A stretch of 64,000 nucleotides of DNA from IMG/VR virus record IMGVR_UViG_3300025909_000005, one strand, 5' to 3'. The notes below the pieces were generated by a model that searched no databases, was not told the DNA's origin, and saw only the letters and a program-made list of their open reading frames with translations. A program made the position numbers and the translations under genes. Shown piece after piece: positions 47,246 through 59,751 of the stretch (positions are counted from its first letter, which is position 1; each line of letters starts with the position of its first letter). The stretch comes from a virus. Lineage: Duplodnaviria; Caudoviricetes.

Positions 47246-47598
47246 AAATCAATGAATTGATTGAGGGACTTGCCAAGCTGCAATCCTCCTACCGAGAACT
47301 GTTCAAATTCAGCCCAGATATGTCCGATGAAAAGATTGCAGACCACCTTGATCGTGTGGGCCATCAATTTGATTTGAAGGTGTATCCGATTGAGACTTGG
47401 CGTAGCACATATGTAGCTGATGAACTTACCATTGGTGCAGCTTCTTCAGACATCGAATCAGCTGAATTCAAGAAAAAGCTGACGGACTTCGTTCGCGACG
47501 CCAATGAGGGCGCCAAGCTTTCTAAGGCAGGATTTAGTTTGCATGTAAGCGGCGTACATGCTTGGCGCCAGGCCACTGTCACAATTGAGAGGTCATGA
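47242..47598 (+). CDS. Hypothetical protein, MKINELIEG tag, lower GC
   Basis: GTGA overlap; tag. Confidence 0.55.
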   Translation: MKINELIEGLAKLQSSYRELFKFSPDMSDEKIADHLDRVGHQFDLKVYPIETWRSTYVADELTIGAASSDIESAEFKKKLTDFVRDANEGAKLSKAGFSLHVSGVHAWRQATVTIERS

Positions 47599-48086
47599 TG
47601 AACCCAAAGCCAAAGTCAGACAACCCGATGCTCAGCAACGACAAGAAGCTGACGAACCCTCTGGACGAGCTCTTCAACACAGCCCAGTCTGAGGAGGTCG
47701 TTGAGTACGAACAGGTCACTGAAGGTGAGCTCGCCGAGATGGCAGAGCCAGAGAAGCCAACGAAGGACGAGGAAGACGTTGAGATCGATGCCAAGATCGA
47801 CACTGTCTACACCGCGGCCATCGATGCCTTCAACCAGCAGACGGCCTACACCGAGATCATCGAGCCTCGCTACGCAGCTCGCAATGCTGAAGTCGCCGCA
47901 AACTACCTGAACATCGCCCTCAACGCCGCCGCCACCCGTGCCCGCGTCAAGGGAGACCGTGCTCGCACGGCGAACTTCGTACCATACGCCAACGGCGGTC
48001 GAAACACCAACAACGTCGTCGTTGCCTCTCGTGAAGAAATCATGAAGATGATCAGCGTGGATGCGGACGTGAAAGAGATCAAGTGA
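47595..48086 (+). CDS. Probable terminase small subunit (T4 gp16-like)
   Basis: Helical core ARNAEVAANYLNIALNAA; C-terminal NNVVVASREEIMKMI. Confidence 0.6.
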   Translation: MMNPKPKSDNPMLSNDKKLTNPLDELFNTAQSEEVVEYEQVTEGELAEMAEPEKPTKDEEDVEIDAKIDTVYTAAIDAFNQQTAYTEIIEPRYAARNAEVAANYLNIALNAAATRARVKGDRARTANFVPYANGGRNTNNVVVASREEIMKMISVDADVKEIK

Positions 48087-48817: not shown

Positions 48818-49626
48818 TCACCTTCAAACAATACCTTCAAGAGGCGCGCTACCGGACCGACATCAGCGAGGAGCGAGCCATCGACCTCCTCAAGGCAAAC
48901 TGCAGCGACGCCTTGAAGCACATCGATACGCCTCTCATTCGTGCTTCCAAGCGAAGCAGCGAACAGGCGTACATCATGCATGGCGAGCTTGGCGAACGGC
49001 AGTCTGCGTGGTCTCGAAGCAACTTCTACACCATCACTCTGGATGAGGTCAATGGCCCACAGGGTTACCCATTGCGTTCCAAGTCGGTCATCTTCGGCAA
49101 CTGGGCAAATTGGGAGAGCATGGATCATTACGCAAAGGCAGGCGGCATGTACGCGCTGTTCCCCTACGACGGCGTCAAGATTGGTGTTACGCCTAAGTGG
49201 GACCTTTGGGAAGGGCCCGCTTTTAAAATCGGTCATGGAACTCGCAGGCGCCAATTGAACGGTTGGAACAACTTCTTCCGTGCCTTGCACCTCGATGATT
49301 CCTCATATGAGGCGTTTGTTTCATCCATTGAAACTGCCATCAAGAACGAGGATGAATGGGCTGATGAACATGAGATCAAGGACGAGGACAAGGACGAGCT
49401 TGACGAACTTGTTGAGATGTTCGACAATGGTAAGGTTGATGAACAGCTTCACCGAGCATACGACGCCAAAAACCAGGACTTTGATCTTGTTGACACGCAC
49501 CTAATTTACGACATCTCCGGCACTCATGAGTGCTGGACAAGTGGGAAGTGTATTGCGTGGCGTCTAGGAAATAGCCGTGATGATGCAGAGAGCTCCCTTG
49601 CAAACCTGAAGGAGATGCTGAAGTGA
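48814..49626 (+). CDS. Divergent ART-like paralog with MITFKQYLQE tag
   Basis: PLIRA, RSKSVIF, YALFP, SGTHECW. Confidence 0.45.
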   Translation: MITFKQYLQEARYRTDISEERAIDLLKANCSDALKHIDTPLIRASKRSSEQAYIMHGELGERQSAWSRSNFYTITLDEVNGPQGYPLRSKSVIFGNWANWESMDHYAKAGGMYALFPYDGVKIGVTPKWDLWEGPAFKIGHGTRRRQLNGWNNFFRALHLDDSSYEAFVSSIETAIKNEDEWADEHEIKDEDKDELDELVEMFDNGKVDEQLHRAYDAKNQDFDLVDTHLIYDISGTHECWTSGKCIAWRLGNSRDDAESSLANLKEMLK

Positions 49627-50000
49627 TTACCTTCAAGCAGTTTCTAGAAGGGCTGAAGGACCTGGCGAAAGATGCTGATGAGAACCCACCCATTGTGCCT
49701 GTCGTTATGCTTGACGTTCTCAAGTCTCAGGCCGAGAAAAGCAAGTACAAAATGCAGATCACCAATGCCGATCCTAAGAAGGCCGAGCTGCACTTTGAGT
49801 ATCGAGATGAGAATCACATCACTCTGATGACAAGCGTGTTCTTCTACCCTGATAGAACGTCCATGCAATGGGGACGCTGGGGCGGCGGGCACTCAGGAAA
49901 CCAGTCCTTCGATCACAGCGAGTACGGCACGCCTACCGAACTGGCGCGTGTCATCCTTCATCGACTTCACTACGTGGCAGATCTTCTGTACGGACAATGA
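49623..50000 (+). CDS. Putative internal head protein, MITFKQFLE tag
   Basis: GTGA overlap; EGLKDLAK. Confidence 0.6.
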   Translation: MITFKQFLEGLKDLAKDADENPPIVPVVMLDVLKSQAEKSKYKMQITNADPKKAELHFEYRDENHITLMTSVFFYPDRTSMQWGRWGGGHSGNQSFDHSEYGTPTELARVILHRLHYVADLLYGQ

Positions 50001-50737
50001 TCACCTTCAAACAATTCATCGATGAGAGCACCAACGACAAGGGCGTCCTCAAGGCCATCTTCGTCGTGGGTATTCCTGGTGCAGGCAAGACCTACACCAT
50101 TTCCCAAATCAACGGCCGCATCGCACCAAAGCTGGTCACGATGGACACAGCTGCTGAGTACCTGATCAAGAAGCTGGGCATCCCATCGACTGACGAGACC
50201 TGGCCAAAGATCGTCGACACAGCTCGCAAGATGACACTTGGATCCCTCTACTCCTACGTGAATGGCGTGCTGCCCCTTTTCGTCGACGGAACCCTCAACG
50301 ACATCTCAAACGTTCAGTCGCGCATCAATATTCTTGAGGACATTGGCTACGACATCGGCATGGTCTACGTGCACGCTGACCTGTACACTGCGAAGTCCCG
50401 GGCTGTAGCGCGGGCAAAGGTGAATGGTCGCCACGTCTCCGACGACTTCATTGAGAAGACGCACGCTGTCTCCGAGAAGAACAAGGAGCTGTTCATGAAC
50501 CGCTTCTCGTTCTACAAGGAGGTTGACAACAGCTCGGGCGCCATGGACAATGAGGCGCTGCTGAAGATCTACCGGGCCGCTCAGGGTTTCTACAGTGAGC
50601 CAGTAAAGAACGAACGTGGTCAAGGAGTCCTTGAGAAGCTTAAGAGCGAGAAGCAGGGCTACCTCGTACCGACGATCTATCAGAAGGAAGACCTTGCCGA
50701 AAAATTGGCTGGCTGGTACAAGGGCGGACGTAAATAA
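49997..50737 (+). CDS. Zeta-toxin/AAA_33-like P-loop kinase with MITFKQFIDE tag
   Basis: FVVGIPGAGKT, LFVDGT, GYDIGMVYV, ARAKVNGRHV. Confidence 0.75.
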   Translation: MITFKQFIDESTNDKGVLKAIFVVGIPGAGKTYTISQINGRIAPKLVTMDTAAEYLIKKLGIPSTDETWPKIVDTARKMTLGSLYSYVNGVLPLFVDGTLNDISNVQSRINILEDIGYDIGMVYVHADLYTAKSRAVARAKVNGRHVSDDFIEKTHAVSEKNKELFMNRFSFYKEVDNSSGAMDNEALLKIYRAAQGFYSEPVKNERGQGVLEKLKSEKQGYLVPTIYQKEDLAEKLAGWYKGGRK

Positions 50738-50741
50738 CACC

Positions 50742-51548
50742 ATGAAAATTGATGAACTCCTGAACCCTTTGGTTCCACAGCCCCTCCTCGAGGGCCTCAC
50801 CCTGTCCATCTATGAGGACCTGATCCAGGACCTCATGCTTGAGGACGACGCGGCTGCACCTCCTGCTGACAGTAGCCCGCCTGCTGCAACTGGTGGCACG
50901 CTTGGAACGACTGCAACCACGCCGGTCGTGGACGGCAGTGGTTCACACAGCTGCGGCCCATACGAGATTGGGCACTGGGGTGGCGGTCCAATCGGTGTTG
51001 GTCCAGTCTTCGGTGGCATGTGGTTCAATCAACTCTACGCATCTGTCAAGCAGCTCATCACCGCAAAGCGTATCAAGACACGCATGAAGCAGATTGGCAT
51101 CTCAACGAAGGGTGCTGCTCGAGTTGAGAAGGCCGCAAAGGCGGCTGCAAAGAACGTGAAGGACCTGCTGTCCAACCCACGCAGCGTTGCCTACCAGACT
51201 CCGGTTTGGACGACGCAGAAGATGCCGAAGCCGATGCTTAAGAAGTGGAATGAACACTTCGGAGAAGAGTTCCAGAAGGAGCTTGCGAAGCTGACGGTAG
51301 ACGACCTCTTTGAAGGAGTGAACGCAAACGACCTAGCCACGCAGTGGCTAGGTGTCAAGTCACTCGGTGCTGCTCAACCGGCCCTGCGTAGCGAAGAGGA
51401 GCAGTTCCTCGACCGTGGCCGTCAGGTTAAGCGCCAGGTCATTGACACGCCGATGGGAAAGACAGTCGTCATTCTCTACCAGCTCGGTGACAAGAAGATG
51501 GTCCGTCTGGAAACTGCCGATCGAAAGATGAAGTCCTACGTGGCGTAA
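50742..51548 (+). CDS. Putative internal head protein, MKIDELL tag, multiple LxE sites
   Basis: TAAATA 50731-50736, 5 nt before ATG; LLE, IYE, MLE, LFE. Confidence 0.6.
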   Translation: MKIDELLNPLVPQPLLEGLTLSIYEDLIQDLMLEDDAAAPPADSSPPAATGGTLGTTATTPVVDGSGSHSCGPYEIGHWGGGPIGVGPVFGGMWFNQLYASVKQLITAKRIKTRMKQIGISTKGAARVEKAAKAAAKNVKDLLSNPRSVAYQTPVWTTQKMPKPMLKKWNEHFGEEFQKELAKLTVDDLFEGVNANDLATQWLGVKSLGAAQPALRSEEEQFLDRGRQVKRQVIDTPMGKTVVILYQLGDKKMVRLETADRKMKSYVA

Positions 51549-51559
51549 CGAAAGCAATC

Positions 51560-51925
51560 ATGAGTTTCACTGACCTGATGTCCTACCTTCTTTACGCGGA
51601 GGTGGCGACGCAAAAGATGCACTGGAAGTCAAAGTCGTTCGCTCGCCACGTTGCGCTGGGTGACATGTACGAGGCCATGGTTGACATCGTTGACGAGCTC
51701 AATGAGATCTGGATGGGCAAGTACGGAAATGAAACTCCCATTCCTACTAAGGACTGGAACGCAGATATGACCTCCGAAAAGAGCTACATAGATCAGATGT
51801 TCGCGACCCTTGAGGCCTTCCACGGATTGGTCTTTCAGGATGGCGATGACTATATCAAGAACAAGTTCGAGGAACTACAGGCGGTCGTCGCCCGAGCGAA
51901 ATACAAGATTGATAACCTGGTGTAA
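51560..51925 (+). CDS. Ferritin/Dps-like four-helix protein (DUF5856-like)
   Basis: KMHWKSKSFARHVALGDMYE..DELNEIWMGKYG; NKFEEL..KYK. Confidence 0.65.
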   Translation: MSFTDLMSYLLYAEVATQKMHWKSKSFARHVALGDMYEAMVDIVDELNEIWMGKYGNETPIPTKDWNADMTSEKSYIDQMFATLEAFHGLVFQDGDDYIKNKFEELQAVVARAKYKIDNLV

Positions 51926-51942
51926 ATTCCACGAAAGGAACG

Positions 51943-52197
51943 ATGATGGGTATTCTGAAGAAAGTGTTGATTGCCGGTGCAGGTGCAGCGGCATCCTATT
52001 ACGCAACCAAGTGGGTCGCGCAGCTGCTTGAAGAGAAGCCGCTCGACCAACGCCTGGCCGACCTGCAAAAGATGGCGGAGGTCTACACGACCGCTGCCAA
52101 GGACGCAGGTACTGATGCAGTTGAAAAGACGATGGGCAAGAAGGACGAGCTTATCGAGGGTCTGCAAAAGTACCTGGACAGTCTGAAGAGCCAGTGA
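51943..52197 (+). CDS. Small membrane-anchored protein
   Basis: AAAGGA SD; ILKKVLIAGAGAAASYY. Confidence 0.55.
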   Translation: MMGILKKVLIAGAGAAASYYATKWVAQLLEEKPLDQRLADLQKMAEVYTTAAKDAGTDAVEKTMGKKDELIEGLQKYLDSLKSQ

Positions 52198-52313
52198 TGC
52201 TCCGCACGATCGGCAAGGTAATCGCCGGTGTGGCTGCTACGGCAGCTACGACCTACCTGGGGAAGCGCTTTCTCCAGTGGGCCGGCGTCATCAAGAAACC
52301 TCCGCAAAAGTGA
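52197..52313 (+). CDS. 38-aa amphipathic peptide (absent from ORF track)
   Basis: MLRTIGKVIAGVAATAATTYLGKRFLQWAGVIKKPPQK; overlaps both neighbours' stop/start. Confidence 0.55.
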   Translation: MLRTIGKVIAGVAATAATTYLGKRFLQWAGVIKKPPQK

Positions 52314-52990
52314 TCACCTTCAAGCAGTTCCTGAACGAAACGACGGTCGAAAAGTACTCCACGGATCTAGAAGAAATTGTGGACCTCATTCAGCAGGACT
52401 GCCAGCCATTCCTGCGCGAGGCCGGCGACTACGCGCTCTTCCGCGGGTTCAGGGGCCGACGAGGCTTGACTGATGATCACGGCCACCACATTGGGCCCAT
52501 CTACTGGCTCAAGGCAACTCCACGCACTGACCGTCGGCCACTTGACTCGTATAAGCTGGCTCATGACCTCATGGACGACTGGTTCGAGAAGAACTACGGT
52601 GTGCGCGCTCGGTCTGAGGGCGTCTTTTGCGCTCCTCGTCAGGCTCAGGCTGCTTCGTATGGGCGCGCCTTCTACGTCTTTCCAATTGGCAACTTCAAGG
52701 TTCTCTGGGCCAGCCACGATGTGGCTGGAACGAGCGGCGTCAAGGACACTGCAAGCCTCTCAGATTCCATCTACAGGTTTGCTGAGACCGTGGAGCCGGA
52801 CAAGCAGGCCGACGTTGCTGACCGCGTCATGACGAACCACAATCACTGGCATGAAGGCAACGTGAAGAAGGCAGTCCAGTCTGATGCCGAGATCACGCTC
52901 ATCTGCGACAAGTACTACGCCGTGGCCTGTGGGCCAAATGTACACTACACTGACCTCATTTCTGGAAAACAGTTGCCCCGTGAAGAGTAA
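52310..52990 (+). CDS. ART-like paralog with MITFKQFLNE tag
   Basis: LFRG, RSEGVFCAP, ASYGRAFYVFP, SDAEITLIC; GTG start. Confidence 0.5.
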   Translation: MITFKQFLNETTVEKYSTDLEEIVDLIQQDCQPFLREAGDYALFRGFRGRRGLTDDHGHHIGPIYWLKATPRTDRRPLDSYKLAHDLMDDWFEKNYGVRARSEGVFCAPRQAQAASYGRAFYVFPIGNFKVLWASHDVAGTSGVKDTASLSDSIYRFAETVEPDKQADVADRVMTNHNHWHEGNVKKAVQSDAEITLICDKYYAVACGPNVHYTDLISGKQLPREE

Positions 52991-53013
52991 ATAAGAGATC
53001 TACCGGATCTCTT
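52988..53013 (+). promoter_or_regulatory. Late promoter TAAATA plus perfect 8-bp hairpin
   Basis: TAAATA 52988-52993; AAGAGATC 52993-53000 / GATCTCTT 53006-53013; ATG 53015. Confidence 0.7.
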
Positions 53014-53014
53014 C

Positions 53015-53599
53015 ATGACGCACATCGCCTACATTCACGGACTGAATTCTAGTCACACGTCGTTCAAGTACATTCATGAGATGCTACCTGAACACAAGGC
53101 CACGTTCCTTGACTACGAGAGTCACCAGGACCTCGGCACCTCGATCGCGCAGGTGCTTCGGAAGTTCCCTAAGAGTGAGCCTGTTGTCATCGTCGGTCAC
53201 TCCCTAGGTGGCGTCATCGGCACGCTAATCGCGGCTGAGTACCCTGACCGCGTCCTCAAGCTCGTCACGATGTCCTCGCCCTTCAGTGGTTCCCGCGCGG
53301 CTTCAACCCTTCGCTGGATCCCTGGCTCCCTGAAGATCCTGAACGACATCACGCCAGCCTCCTCATACATCAAGAAGGTGAAGTCGCTGAAGTTGGACGT
53401 TCCAACTATCTCGATCATCTCCACGGGCGGTCACCTGCCTACATCACCAGAGCCAAATGACAGCGTCGTCTCACTGTCCTCTCAGCGCGCCTTGAAGTTC
53501 GGAAAGAAGATCGAGGTCAACGTATCCCACTTTGAAGTCCTCATGCATGACAAGACCGTCAAGACGATCAAGGACTTCGTCTTCGGAGACACCGAATGA
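53015..53599 (+). CDS. Alpha/beta hydrolase
   Basis: YIHGLNS, VGHSLGG (GxSxG), NDSVV, SHFE. Confidence 0.9.
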   Translation: MTHIAYIHGLNSSHTSFKYIHEMLPEHKATFLDYESHQDLGTSIAQVLRKFPKSEPVVIVGHSLGGVIGTLIAAEYPDRVLKLVTMSSPFSGSRAASTLRWIPGSLKILNDITPASSYIKKVKSLKLDVPTISIISTGGHLPTSPEPNDSVVSLSSQRALKFGKKIEVNVSHFEVLMHDKTVKTIKDFVFGDTE

Positions 53600-54396
53600 A
53601 GATCCACTCAAAGCGCCACCGCGACGCTCACGCAATCCATCCGTACACGTCTCACCAGGTTCAAATGATGATGGACCCCGTGAAGTTCATCAACGCGTAC
53701 ATGCACACTCCCTACGCCATCGGTGGCACAAAGCAGATCAGGCTCCATCCCTTCCAGGAGGACTTCATCAACTGCATCAAGCAGAACAAAAACGTCATCG
53801 CTGTCATGCCACGTCAGTCAGGCCAGACGATGACTGCTTTGGCCTTCTGCCTCTGGGAAAGCATGTTTGTTGTTGGCGCTGACGACACCATGATCCTTAC
53901 AACGGATCAAATGAACGTGCAACCGCTCGCAGACATCCTGAAGACGATGCTCAACTCTGTTCCAGCGTTCATGCGACCATCTGTTCTACAGCAGAATCGA
54001 ACAGCTATCTCGTTCGCGAAGGGTTCGCGCATTGAAGTTGCTCACATCAACCCATCTACTGTCTGTGGCCGATCACCAACTAGAGTTCACCTCGACTCGT
54101 TTGCAGCCGCGTCTGACCAGCGACAGAAGGACGCGTGGTACACCCTCATCGGTACTCTCGTCACGTCCAACAACATCTCCATGACCGGTACTCCTCGCGG
54201 TACCACTTCAACGTTTGCCCACATCTGGCGCGAGGCCAACCTCCAGATTGCCAATGGCAAGACGTTTAACGACTTCACGCCGTTCTTCAAGAACGTGCAT
54301 GACATGACTCACTTGGACCCACTCTGGCTCCAGTCAACTCGCAAGGCGATTGGCGAGTCAGCGTGGAAGTCAGAATTTGAGTGCCAGTTCCTATGA
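53596..54396 (+). CDS. Terminase-large-subunit ATPase paralog with degenerate Walker motifs and no nuclease domain
   Basis: LHPFQ, PRQSGQT (vs RQCGKT), VHLDSFA (vs IYLDELA), TGTPRG, WKSEFECQFL. Confidence 0.75.
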   Translation: MKIHSKRHRDAHAIHPYTSHQVQMMMDPVKFINAYMHTPYAIGGTKQIRLHPFQEDFINCIKQNKNVIAVMPRQSGQTMTALAFCLWESMFVVGADDTMILTTDQMNVQPLADILKTMLNSVPAFMRPSVLQQNRTAISFAKGSRIEVAHINPSTVCGRSPTRVHLDSFAAASDQRQKDAWYTLIGTLVTSNNISMTGTPRGTTSTFAHIWREANLQIANGKTFNDFTPFFKNVHDMTHLDPLWLQSTRKAIGESAWKSEFECQFL

Positions 54397-55937
54397 AGAA
54401 TCCCCAGCTAAAGCGCGCCTACTCCACAGACGAGTATACCCCTCAAATGATTGGTGAGCTTGCCAAGTGCAAGAAGGATCCCGTCTACTTCATCCGTACC
54501 TACGTGAAGGTCCAACACCCGGTCCGTGGTACGGTTCCGTTTGACCTGTACGAGTACCAAGAGCGGTTCATCCGTCACATGCAGGACAACCGCTTCACGA
54601 TCACGCTTCAGCCACGCCAGTGCGGCAAGACCCTGACGGTGGCCATGTTCCTGTTGTGGTACGCGATGTTCAATGAAGACGCGCTGCTCCTGATCGCCTC
54701 GAAGAACCAGGGCCACGCCCTTGAGATCGCCGCGCGCGTTCGCTTCGCCTACGAGGAACTTCCAAACTGGATCAAGTGCGGTCTCAAGTACTACAACCGC
54801 CACAACATCGAGTTCGACAACGGTTCGCGCATCATCTCGGAAGCCACGACCGAAAAGACAGGTCGTGGTCTCGCTATCACGAAGATCTACCTCGACGAGT
54901 TGGCCTTCATTAACCCACGCATCCAACAGGAGCTGTGGAAGTCTCTGACCCCTACCCTTTCGACTGGTGGTTCGGCTATCATCTCGTCGACGCCAAACGG
55001 TGACACCGAGCTCTTCGCCAGCCTGTGGCGCGAGGCCAACACCGAGGGAGATGGCAAGCCAGGCCGTAACGGCTACGCACCTTTCCAGGTTGACTGGCGC
55101 GAACACCCTGAACGCAGCGACGACTACTGGGACACGATGGTTTCTCAGCTTGGTCTTCTTGCCTGCCGTCAGGAAGTTGGCTGCGAGTTCCTCTCGTCTG
55201 ACGCCCTGCTCATCAACTCCCTTCGCCTGCATGAGCTTCACGAATCCATGGTCCACCACACGGACATGGGCTTCAAGTTCTGGAAGGCGGACGAGGACAT
55301 TGGTGGAAGTGGCAAGACCTACCTCGTCGGTGTCGACCCTGCAACCGGTGGCGGTAACGACTACTCGGTCATCGAGGTGTTTGAGTTCCCGAGCCTGGAG
55401 CAGGTTGCTGAGTGGCGATCCAACGAGATCAAGATCCCGATGCTGTACGCCAAGCTCAAGTGGATCTTGAACAAGCTCTCTGCTCCGATCAACCGTGGAC
55501 GTGCTGAGGTGCTATGGACCTTCGAACGGAACGGCATCGGTGAAGCTGTCTCGACGCTCTACTACAACGACGAACGACAGCCAGAAGCTGAACTCTTCAA
55601 TGACAACCCTGCCAAGCTGGGCGTCTTTACCTCGGGCAAGACGAAGGTCCTGACCTGTCTGCAGCTCAAGGCGGCAGTCGAGCGCGTCAAGGGCGGCCTG
55701 AAGATCAACTCAGCCCAGCTCCTGAACGAGCTCAAGAACTTCGTGGCCAAGGGTGGATCGTACGAGGCCAAGTCTGGTGCCACAGACGACTGTGTCATGG
55801 CGCTGGTGCTCGTCATGCGACTGCTCAAGCGTATCGGCGACTACGACGACCGGGCCTTCAGAATGGTGAACGAATACGTAGAACCTGACGTGGATGATCA
55901 GTGGGGAGATGAGCCAGTCCCGTTCTCGATCTCTTAA
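54381..55937 (+). CDS. gp17: Terminase large subunit (T4 gp17-like)
   Basis: LYEYQ, PRQCGKT, YLDELAF, SSTPNG, VGVDPATG..DYS, FERNGIG, ATDDCVMAL. Confidence 0.95.
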   Translation: MPVPMKNPQLKRAYSTDEYTPQMIGELAKCKKDPVYFIRTYVKVQHPVRGTVPFDLYEYQERFIRHMQDNRFTITLQPRQCGKTLTVAMFLLWYAMFNEDALLLIASKNQGHALEIAARVRFAYEELPNWIKCGLKYYNRHNIEFDNGSRIISEATTEKTGRGLAITKIYLDELAFINPRIQQELWKSLTPTLSTGGSAIISSTPNGDTELFASLWREANTEGDGKPGRNGYAPFQVDWREHPERSDDYWDTMVSQLGLLACRQEVGCEFLSSDALLINSLRLHELHESMVHHTDMGFKFWKADEDIGGSGKTYLVGVDPATGGGNDYSVIEVFEFPSLEQVAEWRSNEIKIPMLYAKLKWILNKLSAPINRGRAEVLWTFERNGIGEAVSTLYYNDERQPEAELFNDNPAKLGVFTSGKTKVLTCLQLKAAVERVKGGLKINSAQLLNELKNFVAKGGSYEAKSGATDDCVMALVLVMRLLKRIGDYDDRAFRMVNEYVEPDVDDQWGDEPVPFSIS

Positions 55938-55983: not shown

Positions 55984-58900
55984 ATGCTTACAGACGGTAT
56001 TCAGCTGCTCGGCTCTTCAACTGCGACGAACCTGTCGATCACGAGCGGCACCACCCTTCCTTCTACCGGCCTGAACGTCGGTGAACTCTTCTACCAGATT
56101 GGAACTGGTCTGTATGTCTCGGATGGCTCCGCGTGGAACCAAGTCGGTTCAGCATACGTCCTGACCGCTGCCAAGATCACGACCGCGCTTGGCGCAACTC
56201 CTGCAACTCTCGACGGCACCGGCAAGCTGAGCACCTCCCAGCTGCCAGCGATCGCCATCACTGACACCTTCCCTGTCGCATCTCAAGCTGAGATGCTGGC
56301 GCTCACCGCTCAGACAGGCGACGTTGCAGTTCGCAGCGACTCGAACACCTCCTGGATTCTGAAGGGAACCGATCCTTCTCAGCTCTCCAACTGGACGCAG
56401 CTGCTCACACCAACTTCGGCAGTCACCTCAGTCAACACTCAGACCGGTGCAGTCACGCTCACCACCACGAACATCTCGGAAGGTACGAACAAGTACTACA
56501 CAGACGCCCGTGCTCGTGCAGCAATCTCGGCAACTGGCTCTGGCGGCTCGTATGACTCCTCGACTGGTGTCATCACGTTCTCCTCCGGAACGGCAGGCAC
56601 GCTCTCGGCAGCCACCACGATTGGTGACGGCACAGGCGCTTCTTCGATCACCTCGACAGGTGGTACGAACGCCAACCTCACGATTGCAGCGGGTCAAGGC
56701 GGTGCGAACTCCTCGCTGTACCTCCAGGCTGGTCCATCTGGTTCCGGTTCCCAGACTGGCGGCTCGGTCTACATCTCTCCAGGTGCCAATGGTGCAACCT
56801 CTGGTTCCGGCATCGGCAACGTCGTTATTCAAGGCAACCCAGCTTCTGCCTACGTTGGCGCGACGGGTGGCAACAGCAACGGCGCAATCGTCTTCCAGAC
56901 GGGTGCAGCGCAGTCCACAAACAACACAGTCAACACACTCGTCAACCGCCTCGTCATCCAGGCAGGCGGTGCATGGATCGTCAGCGGCTCAGCAGGCTCA
57001 AGCGGCCAGGTTCTGACGTCTGCTGGTGCCGGTGCGACACCGACCTGGACAACCATTGCGACAACTTCGCTGTCGGCAACTGGCGGTACTCCACGCTCAA
57101 GCACGACAGGTGTCTACGCCGGTCTCGATGCGACGAACCAGCCGGTCATCACGCTGAACAACGCCGGTCTGACCACTGGCAACCGTGCCTCTGACATCTA
57201 CATTGCTTCCGACGGCATCCTGCGTTGGGACTTTGCGAACGACTCGTACACGGTCGGTACAGCGTGGCTGCAGGTTGCACGTTCTAGCAACACCGCAACC
57301 AACATCACGCTCACAGGCACGGCAATCACGCTTACGGGCGCCGTATCTGGCACGTCCTTCAGCGGTGATGGTTCTGCTCTTACGGCCCTCAATGCATCGA
57401 ACCTTTCTACCGGCACGGTTGGTACGGCCCGTCTTGGTTCAGGTACGGCTTCCTCTACGACCTTCCTTCGTGGTGACGGCACCTGGGCAACCCCATCGGG
57501 TGGCAGCGGCACAGTCACTTCTGTTGCAGTTTCGGGTGGTACAACGGGTCTTACGACTTCCGGCGGTCCGATCACTGGCTCTGGAACGATCACGCTTGCC
57601 GGTACTCTCGCGCTGGCAAACGGCGGTACAGGTGCAACTACCCAGGCTGGCGCTGCGAATGCAGTTCTTCCAACGCAGACAAGCAACTCTGGCAAGTTCC
57701 TCACAACTGACGGCTCGAATGTTTCTTGGGCTACGGTCTCTGGTGGCACTGGTTCTCCAGGTGGCTCTGACACGCAAGTTCAGTACAACGCGTCTGGCGC
57801 CTTTGCAGGCAGCTCGACCTTCACGTTCAACTCTGGCACCGGCACCGTCACTGCAACGACCTTCTCTGGTGCCCACACGGGTAACGGTTCGGGTCTGACG
57901 AGCCTGACACCAACGAACATCACTGCAACTGGAACACCATCTTCCACGACGTACCTGCGCGGTGACGGCACTTGGTCAACCCCTTCTTCCTCAGCCACCT
58001 CAGCTCTGACAAGCGGCTTCGTTGCCTACGGTATCTCTGGTACGATGAGCGGCTCTACCGCGCTCACCTTCTCGGGCTCTCCAACAAACGGCTCTGGAGC
58101 TCCAACACTCGTCATCGGCGCCTCGACAAACACACAGGCCGCCACCCTCCAACAGAACGACAACCCAGGCTCAACCTTCACGGTTCGCGCTGGTGATTCT
58201 AGCGGCGGTGGTTCCGGTGGTACCCTCGTTGTTCGAGCTGGTCACGGCACGACCAACACTGGCGGTCAAAACGGCGGTAACGTCACGATCATCGCTGGTT
58301 CGTCGGTCGCTGGTTCTAAGGGTTACGTCAGCGTTACAACTGGTGGTACGACAGTCGGTGGTGGCGGTGGTACTGAACGCCTGCGCATCGACCAAAACGG
58401 TACATGGACGCTTAATGGTGCGGCAGGTACCACTGGTCAGGTTCTGACTAGCCAAGGTTCCTCTGCTGCACCAATCTGGGCGGCTGTCAGCCTCACCTCG
58501 CTGCAGGCCACGGCTAGCGCCTCAGTCAACACCTCCACGACTGGATCGTATGTGGGTCTTGACGGTAACACTCAGCCAATCTTGGCGATGGTGAACACCG
58601 CCGCCGGCACGAATAACAAGTACAGCGAATGGGCCGTGACCTCGGCCGGCAGCACTGTTCTGTCGCTCGTGAATGACGCCAACACCGGGAGCTCAAATGT
58701 CATCACTGTTGCGCGCTCAGGAAACACCGCGACGCTGATCACGCTGGCATCGACAGCGGTGAATCTCTCTGGCCTCACGTCTGGTCTTCAGCTGAATGCA
58801 AGCGCGGGCACGACTGGTCAGGTTCTCACGAGCCAAGGTGCTTCATCTGCACCAACATGGACGACACTGGCAGCCCCGACAACCCTCAGCGCAACTGGCA

Positions 58901-59751
58901 CCCAGCCAATCGCGAACTCCGGTGGTACTCAGCCAGGCTCAGCATCAACTGGTGTCTTCATTGGTAAGGACAGCTCAAGCCGTCCGAACTTGACGTTCGT
59001 CAACAGCAGCGGCGGTACCGACTCGAAGGCAACCTACCTGATCAGCACAGGCACTACCTTCGAAGGTCGATTCGCCAATGACATTGACGCTGCCGACGCA
59101 GCATGGATGGCAGTCACGCGCTCTGGCACAACGGCAACTGCGATCTCGTTCACGACGACCGCGATGTCGACCAACACGTCGTTCTCGTCTCCGCTGCTCA
59201 CGTCTGCAAGCACGCTGACGATTACGGCCGGTGCGAACATGGTCATTCAGACGACAGGCGCGAACGGCATCGCCATGAAGACGCCGAACGGCTCGACTGT
59301 CGGCTCAATTGCAATCACGGCTGGTACCGCATCTGCCGGTGCCGGTGGTCCTGTCTCACTGACAGCCGGCAACGGCTCCACCACCGGCGGCAACGCCACG
59401 CTCCAGGCCGGTAACGGCGCTGCAGGTGTTGGTGGTTCTGTCACCATTGCTGGTGGCTCTGGTGGTAACGCAATCGGCGGTGACATCACGATCACTCCAG
59501 GCGCGGGCTCCGGTGGTTCACAGGCAGGTGCTCTCACCCTCGGTGTTGGCTCTCCAGCAACGGCAGCCTTCGGTGGTTTCCCTTACATGCCTGCCATGGC
59601 AGGCGCTCCTTCTGGCGCGCCGACAGCAAAGTCTGGCTTTGTTCCATTCGTGTACGACACGACGAACAACAAGCTTTGGATCTACACAGGCTCCGCCTGG
59701 AAGTGCGTTCCTCTCGGCACAGCTGGTGCTGCGATGGCAACCACGTACTAA
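55984..59751 (+). CDS. Long tail fibre protein with internal repeats
   Basis: 1255 aa, G/S/T-rich; VTSVNTQTGAVTL, TTFLRGDGTW, GSDTQVQYN; three GQVLTSQG modules. Confidence 0.85.
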   Translation: MLTDGIQLLGSSTATNLSITSGTTLPSTGLNVGELFYQIGTGLYVSDGSAWNQVGSAYVLTAAKITTALGATPATLDGTGKLSTSQLPAIAITDTFPVASQAEMLALTAQTGDVAVRSDSNTSWILKGTDPSQLSNWTQLLTPTSAVTSVNTQTGAVTLTTTNISEGTNKYYTDARARAAISATGSGGSYDSSTGVITFSSGTAGTLSAATTIGDGTGASSITSTGGTNANLTIAAGQGGANSSLYLQAGPSGSGSQTGGSVYISPGANGATSGSGIGNVVIQGNPASAYVGATGGNSNGAIVFQTGAAQSTNNTVNTLVNRLVIQAGGAWIVSGSAGSSGQVLTSAGAGATPTWTTIATTSLSATGGTPRSSTTGVYAGLDATNQPVITLNNAGLTTGNRASDIYIASDGILRWDFANDSYTVGTAWLQVARSSNTATNITLTGTAITLTGAVSGTSFSGDGSALTALNASNLSTGTVGTARLGSGTASSTTFLRGDGTWATPSGGSGTVTSVAVSGGTTGLTTSGGPITGSGTITLAGTLALANGGTGATTQAGAANAVLPTQTSNSGKFLTTDGSNVSWATVSGGTGSPGGSDTQVQYNASGAFAGSSTFTFNSGTGTVTATTFSGAHTGNGSGLTSLTPTNITATGTPSSTTYLRGDGTWSTPSSSATSALTSGFVAYGISGTMSGSTALTFSGSPTNGSGAPTLVIGASTNTQAATLQQNDNPGSTFTVRAGDSSGGGSGGTLVVRAGHGTTNTGGQNGGNVTIIAGSSVAGSKGYVSVTTGGTTVGGGGGTERLRIDQNGTWTLNGAAGTTGQVLTSQGSSAAPIWAAVSLTSLQATASASVNTSTTGSYVGLDGNTQPILAMVNTAAGTNNKYSEWAVTSAGSTVLSLVNDANTGSSNVITVARSGNTATLITLASTAVNLSGLTSGLQLNASAGTTGQVLTSQGASSAPTWTTLAAPTTLSATGTQPIANSGGTQPGSASTGVFIGKDSSSRPNLTFVNSSGGTDSKATYLISTGTTFEGRFANDIDAADAAWMAVTRSGTTATAISFTTTAMSTNTSFSSPLLTSASTLTITAGANMVIQTTGANGIAMKTPNGSTVGSIAITAGTASAGAGGPVSLTAGNGSTTGGNATLQAGNGAAGVGGSVTIAGGSGGNAIGGDITITPGAGSGGSQAGALTLGVGSPATAAFGGFPYMPAMAGAPSGAPTAKSGFVPFVYDTTNNKLWIYTGSAWKCVPLGTAGAAMATTY

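What the first reader, a model, noticed from the sequence alone, without database searches (positions are those of the whole stretch)
53596..54396. Pseudo-ATPase paralog of the large terminase immediately upstream of the real one
Seen: this 266-aa ORF parallels the gp17 ATPase domain (LHPFQ vs LYEYQ; PRQSGQT vs PRQCGKT; VHLDSFA vs IYLDELA; TGTPRG vs SSTPNG; SEFECQFL vs QEVGCEFL). The Walker A Lys is Gln, the catalytic Glu is Ser, and there is no nuclease domain. It is intact and overlaps the gp17 start by 16 nt, so it looks maintained, not decaying. Known: several bacterial defences (e.g. Avs/STAND NTPases) sense the terminase ATPase domain. Inference: a decoy for such sensors, or a regulatory/non-catalytic subunit of the packaging motor.
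Basis: partly seen in the sequence, partly recalled or inferred. Interest (0 to 1): 0.75.

Follow-up and report, generated by a model that had tools for sequence, protein, structure and literature searches.

The report
Dead terminase-ATPase paralogue beside real terminase
A jumbo phage carries, directly in front of its DNA-packaging enzyme, a well-preserved extra copy of that enzyme's motor domain that has lost the residues needed to burn ATP; it belongs to a previously undescribed, widespread family whose job is unknown but probably involves binding rather than catalysis.

Summary
ORF 53596-54396 (+, 266 aa) is a true paralogue of the ATPase domain of the adjacent T4-type large terminase (28% identity, E 3e-35). 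Its AF2 model (pLDDT 93) matches the T4 gp17 ATPase domain (TM 0.81). It has no nuclease domain, Walker A Lys is Gln and the catalytic Glu is Ser.

It is not a decaying copy. dN/dS against a natural variant is 0.03 (17 synonymous, 2 nonsynonymous changes, p = 7e-10).

It belongs to a family of at least 39 protein clusters of about 250-270 aa. These lack the Lys (38/39) and Glu (35/39) but all keep the P-loop Arg. In every context that could be read, the gene abuts a full TerL, usually with ATGA overlaps.

One cultured phage, Xanthomonas phage Xoo-sp13, has a member, mis-annotated as "terminase small subunit". Close relatives (three IMG/VR contigs, XacN1) lack it, so it is accessory. At least one lineage (L025) made its own copy independently.

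Function is untested. I favour a non-hydrolysing partner or modulator of TerL (0.4) over an immune decoy (0.28).

I found no description in the searchable literature. The scan has already noted analogous dead terminase paralogues in P1/D6-type phage-plasmids, on other DNA.

The parts
53596..54396 (+). Gene for the standalone, catalytically dead TerL-ATPase paralogue (266 aa, P0001)
   Evidence: ORF. 28% identity, E 3e-35 to own TerL. PHROG TerL families, E 3e-19. AF2 pLDDT 93.3, best PDB match T4 gp17 ATPase domain, TM 0.81. dN/dS 0.031.
53809..53829 (+). Degenerate Walker A / P-loop, P72-R-Q-S-G-Q-T78 (Lys replaced by Gln77; Arg73 and Gly76 kept)
   Evidence: Alignment with TerL. In a 26-member clade the Lys is kept in 0%, Arg and Gly in 100%.
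54085..54105 (+). Degenerate Walker B, V164-H-L-D-S-F-A170 (Asp167 kept, catalytic Glu replaced by Ser168)
   Evidence: Glu kept in 4% of the clade, Asp in 73%.
54393..55937 (+). Genuine large terminase (TerL, T4 gp17 type), probable ATG start overlapping the paralogue's stop as ATGA
   Evidence: Pfam Terminase_6N and Terminase_6C. 80% identical to IMG/VR relatives and 46% to RsoM2USA. Start supported.
53015..53599 (+). Alpha/beta-hydrolase (lipase-like) gene, conserved upstream neighbour, stop overlaps the paralogue's start as ATGA
   Evidence: Pfam Abhydrolase_1 and Lipase_3. Same hydrolase-paralogue-TerL order in contexts of P0004, P0010, P0011, P0012, L002, L004.
47595..48086 (+). Probable conventional small terminase (T4 gp16-like), about 6 kb upstream; context only
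   Evidence: No Pfam or PHROG hit. Protein-atlas features score 0.94 to PF11053 DNA_Packaging clusters, 66 of 100 hits. A lead, not proof.

Best explanation
Shown: the ORF is a functional gene for a standalone copy of the TerL ATPase domain. It keeps the fold and most of the nucleotide-pocket scaffold (P-loop Arg and Gly, adenine-contacting Gln, Walker B Asp). It has lost the Walker A Lys, the catalytic Glu and the whole nuclease domain, so it cannot power packaging or cut DNA. Also shown: it sits in one overlapping gene chain (hydrolase, paralogue, TerL, joined by ATGA overlaps), consistent with co-expression with TerL, and it belongs to an old, widespread family that always lies next to a full TerL. 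Inferred: it acts by binding, most likely to TerL or the assembling packaging motor. There it would serve as a non-hydrolysing accessory subunit or modulator, for example by tuning assembly or restraining free TerL. It is dispensable, because close relatives lack it.
For: Homology and fold. Selective loss of K79 (0% kept) and E169 (4% kept), with R75, G78 and G159 kept in 100% and Q56 in 92% of a 26-member clade. Family of at least 39 clusters at 50% identity among the top 150 hits. Purifying selection, 17 synonymous versus 2 nonsynonymous differences, omega 0.031, p = 7e-10. Native composition. Adjacency to a full TerL in every readable context (window, L002, L004, L006, L025-27, L028, L031, P0004, P0010, P0011, P0012, Xoo-sp13 upstream; P0046 downstream), usually with ATGA overlap. 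A short form that keeps K and E (P0087) also sits directly upstream of a TerL. A natural fusion of two dead domains (P0026) suggests the domain works in multiples.
Against: No direct evidence of binding to TerL. The gene is absent from close relatives: L001/L003/L007, and XacN1 versus Xoo-sp13. It diverges far faster than TerL (about 30% versus 76-90% identity between the same genomes). Partner paralogues of near-identical TerLs fall in different subclades. These patterns are unusual for a core motor part and fit a conflict gene equally well. The Arg equivalent to the P74-26 R139 finger is Cys in the window's copy and is kept in only 58% of the clade.
Confidence: 0.4

Rival explanations
1. Immune decoy or shield. 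The protein mimics the TerL ATPase domain, which Avs-type STAND sensors recognise. It either soaks up the sensors without activating them or covers TerL. It is made together with TerL so that it is present exactly when the trigger is.
For: TerL is an established Avs1-3 trigger (PMC13581612; Avs3-terminase structure 8DGC among the fold hits). Presence or absence differs between close relatives, long-term divergence is fast, and several allelic subclades pair with near-identical TerLs. Independent duplication in the L025 lineage. Unchecked scan notes report analogous dead terminase paralogues in P1/D6-type phage-plasmids.
Against: Nothing was tested. A decoy has no need to stay glued to terL over deep divergence and in both gene orders. 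From memory of the Avs3 structure paper, the sensor reads both the ATPase and the nuclease active sites; this protein lacks the nuclease and the key ATPase residues. Neighbouring accessory genes diverge as fast (orf52277 about 31%), so fast evolution is not specific to this gene.
Confidence: 0.28
2. Weapon in phage-phage or phage-satellite competition. A dominant-negative terminase look-alike poisons the packaging motors of co-infecting rivals while sparing its own.
For: It is a dead subunit of an oligomeric motor. It is accessory and fast-evolving with several allelic lineages.
Against: No evidence of specificity for foreign TerLs. It would have to spare its own co-translated TerL. Nothing was tested.
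Confidence: 0.08
3. Functional replacement for, or addition to, the small terminase. It would be a DNA-recognition or TerL-activating subunit occupying the gp16 position.
For: It lies immediately upstream of and overlapping terL, where T4 has gp16. The Xoo-sp13 homologue was annotated as the small subunit. The window's copy is basic, pI 9.2.
Against: The fold is an ASCE ATPase, not a TerS fold. A gp16-like candidate exists at 47595-48086. Close relatives do without it. Family median pI (8.0) barely differs from TerL N-domains (7.6).
Confidence: 0.07
4. Still an active ATPase that uses non-canonical residues.
For: P-loop Arg and Gly, the adenine-contacting Gln and Walker B Asp are retained.
Against: Lys and Glu are both lost across the clade and replaced by chemically unrelated residues: T, S, A, M, L, I, G, N, Q at the Lys; N, S, D, G, Q, C at the Glu. 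That spread is incompatible with a conserved alternative catalytic residue.
Confidence: 0.05
5. Neutral remnant of a tandem duplication on its way to decay.
For: Catalytic residues and half of the parent gene are gone.
Against: Omega 0.03. Intact ORFs of constant length persist across members only about 25-35% identical to the window's copy. Confident compact fold.
Confidence: 0.01

Closest known systems
T4 gp17 large terminase, N-terminal ATPase domain (Pfam PF03237 Terminase_6N; PDB 2O0H, 3CPE)
   Same: Homologous sequence (family profile E 2e-54) and same fold (TM 0.81, rmsd 2.7 A). Same motif positions, and the same domain boundary at the end of the ATPase domain.
   Different: Walker A Lys, catalytic Glu and the motif-III Ser are substituted. 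There is no RNase H-like nuclease domain. It is a separate gene next to a complete TerL.
Xanthomonas phage Xoo-sp13 gene Xoosp13_242 (QDJ96428.1), annotated 'terminase small subunit'
   Same: Member of the same broad family (A1 profile E 1e-39, 123 bits). 231 aa, directly upstream of TerL, Walker A Lys replaced by Thr.
   Different: Very divergent (long branch, groups with P0149). No hydrolase gene upstream. The annotation as small subunit is not supported by its fold family.
T4 gp16-type small terminase (PF11053)
   Same: Genomic position immediately upstream of, and overlapping, terL.
   Different: Unrelated fold. The window has a separate gp16-like candidate at 47595-48086.
ATPase-dead PacB (TerL) paralogues of P1/D6-type phage-plasmids
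   Same: Standalone TerL-ATPase copy without catalytic residues or nuclease; optional, under selection, function unknown.
   Different: Different TerL lineage (Sf6 gp2/PacB type). Not adjacent to the real terminase, coupled to isaA, and fused to a small extra domain. Not compared by sequence here.
Non-catalytic subunits of oligomeric P-loop ATPases (e.g. clamp-loader delta and delta-prime subunits; general knowledge, analogy only)
   Same: A paralogue that keeps the fold but not hydrolysis, next to catalytic paralogues.
   Different: No evidence yet that this protein enters a complex with TerL.

Membership tests
Large terminase, T4 gp17 type (Terminase_6N + Terminase_6C) | Homology of the N-terminal ASCE ATPase domain | tested here: met
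   BLASTP E 3e-35 to own TerL. PHROG TerL families. gp17 by profile E 2e-54 and by fold TM 0.81. Pfam's own model gave no hit for this copy, though relatives P0004 and P0012 carry PF03237 hits.
Large terminase, T4 gp17 type (Terminase_6N + Terminase_6C) | Walker A G-K-T/S lysine | tested here: not met
   Gln77. The Lys is kept in 0% of the 26-member clade, against 98% of the 83 TerL ATPase domains in the same alignment.
Large terminase, T4 gp17 type (Terminase_6N + Terminase_6C) | Walker B Asp followed by catalytic Glu | tested here: not met
   Asp167 is present but the Glu is Ser168. The Glu is kept in 4% of the clade, against 100% of TerLs.
Large terminase, T4 gp17 type (Terminase_6N + Terminase_6C) | C-terminal RNase H-like nuclease domain | tested here: not met
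   The protein ends at the ATPase-domain boundary and has no Terminase_6C.
Large terminase, T4 gp17 type (Terminase_6N + Terminase_6C) | Arg equivalent to P74-26 R139 (residue identified through the R139A mutant entry 4ZNJ; its role as trans-acting finger is from memory of the P74-26 work) | tested here: not met
   Cys157 in the window's copy. The Arg is kept in 58% of the clade, against 94% of TerLs.
Small terminase (T4 gp16, PF11053) | TerS sequence or fold | tested here: not met
   No PF11053 hit. The fold is the gp17 ATPase domain.
Small terminase (T4 gp16, PF11053) | Gene immediately upstream of terL | tested here: met
   But a separate gp16-like candidate lies at 47595-48086.
Standalone TerL-derived pseudo-ATPase family (defined here, alignment A1) | About 230-300 aa, ATPase domain only, full-length alignment | tested here: met
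Standalone TerL-derived pseudo-ATPase family (defined here, alignment A1) | Loss of Walker A Lys and/or catalytic Glu with retained P-loop Arg | tested here: met
   38/39 lack Lys, 35/39 lack Glu, 39/39 keep Arg.
Standalone TerL-derived pseudo-ATPase family (defined here, alignment A1) | Adjacent to a complete terL gene | tested here: met
   Every context with readable flanks. P0054 and P0026 lie on contigs too short to tell.
Phage anti-defence decoy of Avs sensors | Binds an Avs sensor, or blocks its activation by TerL | not testable with these tools
   No host or sensor is known for this metagenomic phage.

The most novel reading that the evidence does not exclude
Jumbo phages, and independently P1-type phage-plasmids, have repeatedly evolved catalytically dead copies of their terminase motor domain as molecular mimics. 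Made together with TerL, these would blunt host pattern-recognition immunity (Avs-type sensors) that targets the terminase. This would be a phage-encoded decoy of a conserved viral 'PAMP'.
Probability: 0.25. Interest if true: 0.85.

Novelty: new variant of a known kind. Interest (0 to 1): 0.64.

Why it matters
The tailed-phage packaging motor is generally treated as a ring of identical TerL subunits helped by TerS. Here a conserved, selected, ATPase-dead TerL paralogue is co-encoded with TerL in many jumbo phages, and it has arisen more than once. That points to one of two things: an unrecognised accessory component or regulator of packaging, or a mimic used in conflict with hosts or rivals that sense or target the terminase.

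Either outcome would be new biology for one of the most studied viral machines. The cultured phage Xoo-sp13 makes it testable.

There is also a practical point. Such genes are being mis-annotated as small or large terminase subunits, and they could confound TerL-based phylogenies and marker-gene counts.

Tried and rejected
- **Complex prediction.** TerL (alignment A2) plus the paralogue (A1) returned no verdict, score 0.02. It is not evidence either way.
- **RNA runs.** None was listed for the locus, so there is no evidence on expression.
- **Word-indexed protein search.** It found only a 99% identical copy, and a pattern scan of viral contigs with P0001 found nothing. The family appeared only through the exhaustive HMMER search and by fetching TerL loci.
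- **Pfam on P0001.** No terminase hit.
- **Second copies in named phages.** RsoM2USA, XacN1 and PA5oct have none, and XacN1 ORF256, in the same position, is not a member.
- **Single origin.** A quick tree gave an all-pseudo clade of 27 rows including the window's copy (SH-aLRT 99). The careful tree left the backbone unresolved, so I do not claim monophyly.
- **Rosetta-stone fusions of paralogue with TerL.** None found. Long two-stretch hits are intein-split TerLs, and the one true tandem (P0026) is two dead domains.
- **Literature.** No description of an inactive TerL paralogue or terminase decoy was found.
- **TerS candidate at 47595-48086.** Pfam, PHROGs and PDB sequence searches found nothing.

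Full report
**Observation.** The window is part of a jumbo phage. No host genome is held. The same protein occurs on a 376 kb contig. The nearest named TerLs are Ralstonia phage RsoM2USA (46%), XacN1 (42%) and PA5oct (39%). ORF 53596-54396 (+) encodes 266 aa. Immediately downstream lies a complete T4-type large terminase with Terminase_6N and Terminase_6C. The paralogue stops exactly at the end of the ATPase domain. Its Walker A reads P-R-Q-S-G-Q-T (Gln77 for Lys) and its Walker B reads L-D-S (Ser168 for the catalytic Glu).

The TerL start is more probably ATG 54393 than GTG 54381. That start gives the N-terminus MKNPQLKRA shared with relatives and is the one called on variant contigs. So the overlap is ATGA, not 16 nt. 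The upstream alpha/beta-hydrolase gene overlaps the paralogue's start in the same way, which gives a chain of three overlapping genes.

**Structure.** With a 37-member family alignment, AlphaFold2 gives pLDDT 93.3 and pTM 0.89. The best matches in the PDB are the T4 gp17 ATPase domain (2O0H/2O0J, TM 0.81, rmsd 2.7 A, E 1e-18), followed by other large terminases. The family profile finds gp17 at E 2e-54.

**A family, not a one-off.**
- An exhaustive HMMER search of 1.84 billion representatives gave 2039 hits.
- Among the best 150, full-length TerLs (480 aa or more) almost all keep G-K-T/S and D-E (77 of 80).
- Of the 58 proteins of 220-320 aa, 34 lack both Lys and Glu, 4 lack only Lys and 1 lacks only Glu.
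- In these 39 proteins the Lys is replaced by T, S, A, M, L, I, G, N or Q, and the Glu by N, S, D, G, Q or C. All 39 keep the preceding P-loop Arg and 30 keep the Walker B Asp.
- In a 26-member clade around the window's protein, positions that are at least 80% conserved in TerLs split cleanly. Kept: C26, F33, Q56, R75, G78, W89, F93, P124, G159, F208 and W212 (92-100%). Lost: K79 (0%), E169 (4%), T152 (8%), W235 (4%) and R241 (0%).
- The Arg that aligns with P74-26 R139 is kept in 58% and is Cys in the window's copy. I identified this residue through the R139A mutant entry 4ZNJ.
- This is the signature of a pseudo-enzyme that keeps the fold and probably a nucleotide pocket, but not hydrolysis.

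**Selection.** Three metagenomic contigs (L044-L046) carry a variant 97.6% identical in DNA. The paralogue differs by 17 synonymous and 2 nonsynonymous changes: dS 0.10, dN 0.003, omega 0.031. The binomial p against neutrality is 7e-10. This is one independent comparison, since the three contigs share the same sequence. Neighbouring genes give omega 0-0.14. GC and GC3 match the neighbours. Intact ORFs of constant length persist across members only about 25-35% identical to the window's copy. The "decaying duplicate" reading is therefore excluded.

**Genomic context.**
- *Upstream of TerL, same chain.* In every case where flanks could be read, the gene abuts a complete terL. The order hydrolase-paralogue-TerL, with ATGA overlaps, is seen in the window, L002, P0004, P0010 (L049), P0011 (L051) and P0012 (on a 349 kb contig). 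L004 has the same order with an HNH-endonuclease ORF inserted before TerL.
- *Upstream of TerL, other contexts.* L006, L025-27, L028 and L031.
- *Downstream of TerL.* The marine member P0046.
- *Catalytic residues kept.* P0087, a short form that still has Lys and Glu, also sits directly in front of a TerL.
- *Double domain.* P0026 is a single polypeptide made of two dead domains.

**Cultured example.** In Xanthomonas phage Xoo-sp13 the gene annotated "terminase small subunit" (Xoosp13_242, 231 aa, directly upstream of TerL) matches the family profile at E 1e-39 and has G-T-S in place of G-K-T. It is the only cultured example I found among 50,697 phage records with this query.

**Distribution and history.**
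- The gene is accessory. L001, L003 and L007 (TerL 80% identical to the window's) have the hydrolase gene abutting terL with no paralogue. The 251 kb contig behind L001 has no second copy anywhere.
- XacN1, whose TerL is sister to that of Xoo-sp13, has an unrelated ORF in that position.
- Between the same pairs of genomes, the TerL N-domain is 76-90% identical, the hydrolase 53-59%, a kinase-like gene about 50%, orf52277 about 31% and the paralogue about 30%. So it evolves like the fastest accessory genes, not like TerL.
- In a careful IQ-TREE analysis (127 rows) the deep backbone is unresolved, so I do not claim a single origin.
- Two things are robust in that tree. The window's paralogue never groups with its own TerL clade, so the duplication is not recent. 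The L025 paralogue groups with its own TerL lineage (100/90), which makes it an independent duplication.
- The TerLs of the window, L002, L006, L049, L051 and L004 form one tight clade, while their partner paralogues sit in different well-supported subclades. That fits either very fast divergence or exchange of alleles by recombination.
- The variant contigs are themselves mosaic: dS is 0.06-0.10 across orf52310-hydrolase-paralogue but 0.43-0.49 in TerL and the kinase-like gene.

**Is it the small terminase?** Probably not. The fold is an ASCE ATPase. An ORF at 47595-48086, just after a gp4-like TnsA-type head-completion gene, scores 0.94 by protein-language features to PF11053 (gp16) clusters. 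That is a lead rather than proof.

**Mechanism.**
- *Shown.* It is a selected, folded, catalytically disabled, nuclease-less TerL ATPase-domain paralogue, encoded in an overlapping gene chain with TerL.
- *Inferred.* It acts by binding. I favour a non-hydrolysing partner or modulator of TerL or the motor (0.4), because the linkage to terL is the one invariant feature across deep divergence and both gene orders, and because forms with intact catalytic residues and double-domain fusions exist.
- *Main rival.* An immune decoy or shield against TerL-sensing Avs proteins (0.28). This fits the patchy distribution, fast divergence and repeated origin, including analogous dead PacB paralogues that this scan noted in P1/D6-type phage-plasmids (unchecked by me).
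- *Minor rivals.* Competition weapon, TerS substitute, residual ATPase and neutral remnant. The last is refuted.
- A complex prediction gave no verdict and no RNA run was listed. Neither counts as evidence.

**Novelty.** Searches of about 8.4 million papers and preprints found no description of an inactive TerL paralogue or terminase decoy, and the Iyer et al. 2021 jumbo-phage survey does not mention one. Public sources give family members no functional name. I class it as a new variant of a known kind: a TerL-derived pseudo-ATPase family.

Noticed in passing
window 49623-50000, 49994-50737, 52310-52990; also L001 3507-4244, L020 4291-5923: Several consecutive genes begin with nearly the same N-terminal peptide (MITFKQF...). 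From memory this resembles the T4 capsid-targeting sequences of head-packaged proteins. It is conserved in relatives.
   Followed up: no
window 49994-55937 versus L044/L045/L046: Mosaic divergence between natural variants. dS is 0.06-0.10 across orf52310, the hydrolase and the paralogue, but 0.43-0.49 in the kinase-like gene, orf50736 and TerL. This implies recent recombination with a breakpoint near the paralogue/TerL junction.
   Followed up: partly
L020/L021 6001-8970; L022/L024; L028 2327-6762; L029/L030; L031 6752-9861; L033; L004 3968-4636: TerL genes of relatives are often interrupted by intein-like inserts and homing-endonuclease ORFs. In L004 an HNH-endonuclease ORF lies between the paralogue and TerL.
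   Followed up: no
L052 2280-2975 (Xanthomonas phage Xoo-sp13, Xoosp13_242): The gene annotated 'terminase small subunit' is in fact a TerL-ATPase-domain pseudo-enzyme (A1 profile E 1e-39). This is probably a mis-annotation that could propagate.
   Followed up: yes
window 47595-48086: Probable gp16-like small terminase lying about 6 kb from TerL and separated from it by cargo-like genes. Pfam and PHROGs miss it; atlas features score 0.94 to PF11053 clusters.
   Followed up: partly
L053 436-2274 (P0026, 612 aa): A single protein made of two tandem TerL-ATPase-like domains, both lacking the Walker A Lys. The contig is too short to show whether a real TerL is adjacent.
   Followed up: partly
L048 1621-2709 (P0087): An ATPase-only tandem paralogue that still has Walker A Lys and the catalytic Glu lies directly upstream of a real TerL. 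It could be an active intermediate form of the family.
   Followed up: partly
window 55984-59751: A 1255-aa ORF rich in Gly, Ser, Thr and Ala with repetitive segments lies directly downstream of TerL. Relatives have fibre-like ORFs with a similar N-terminus in the same place.
   Followed up: no
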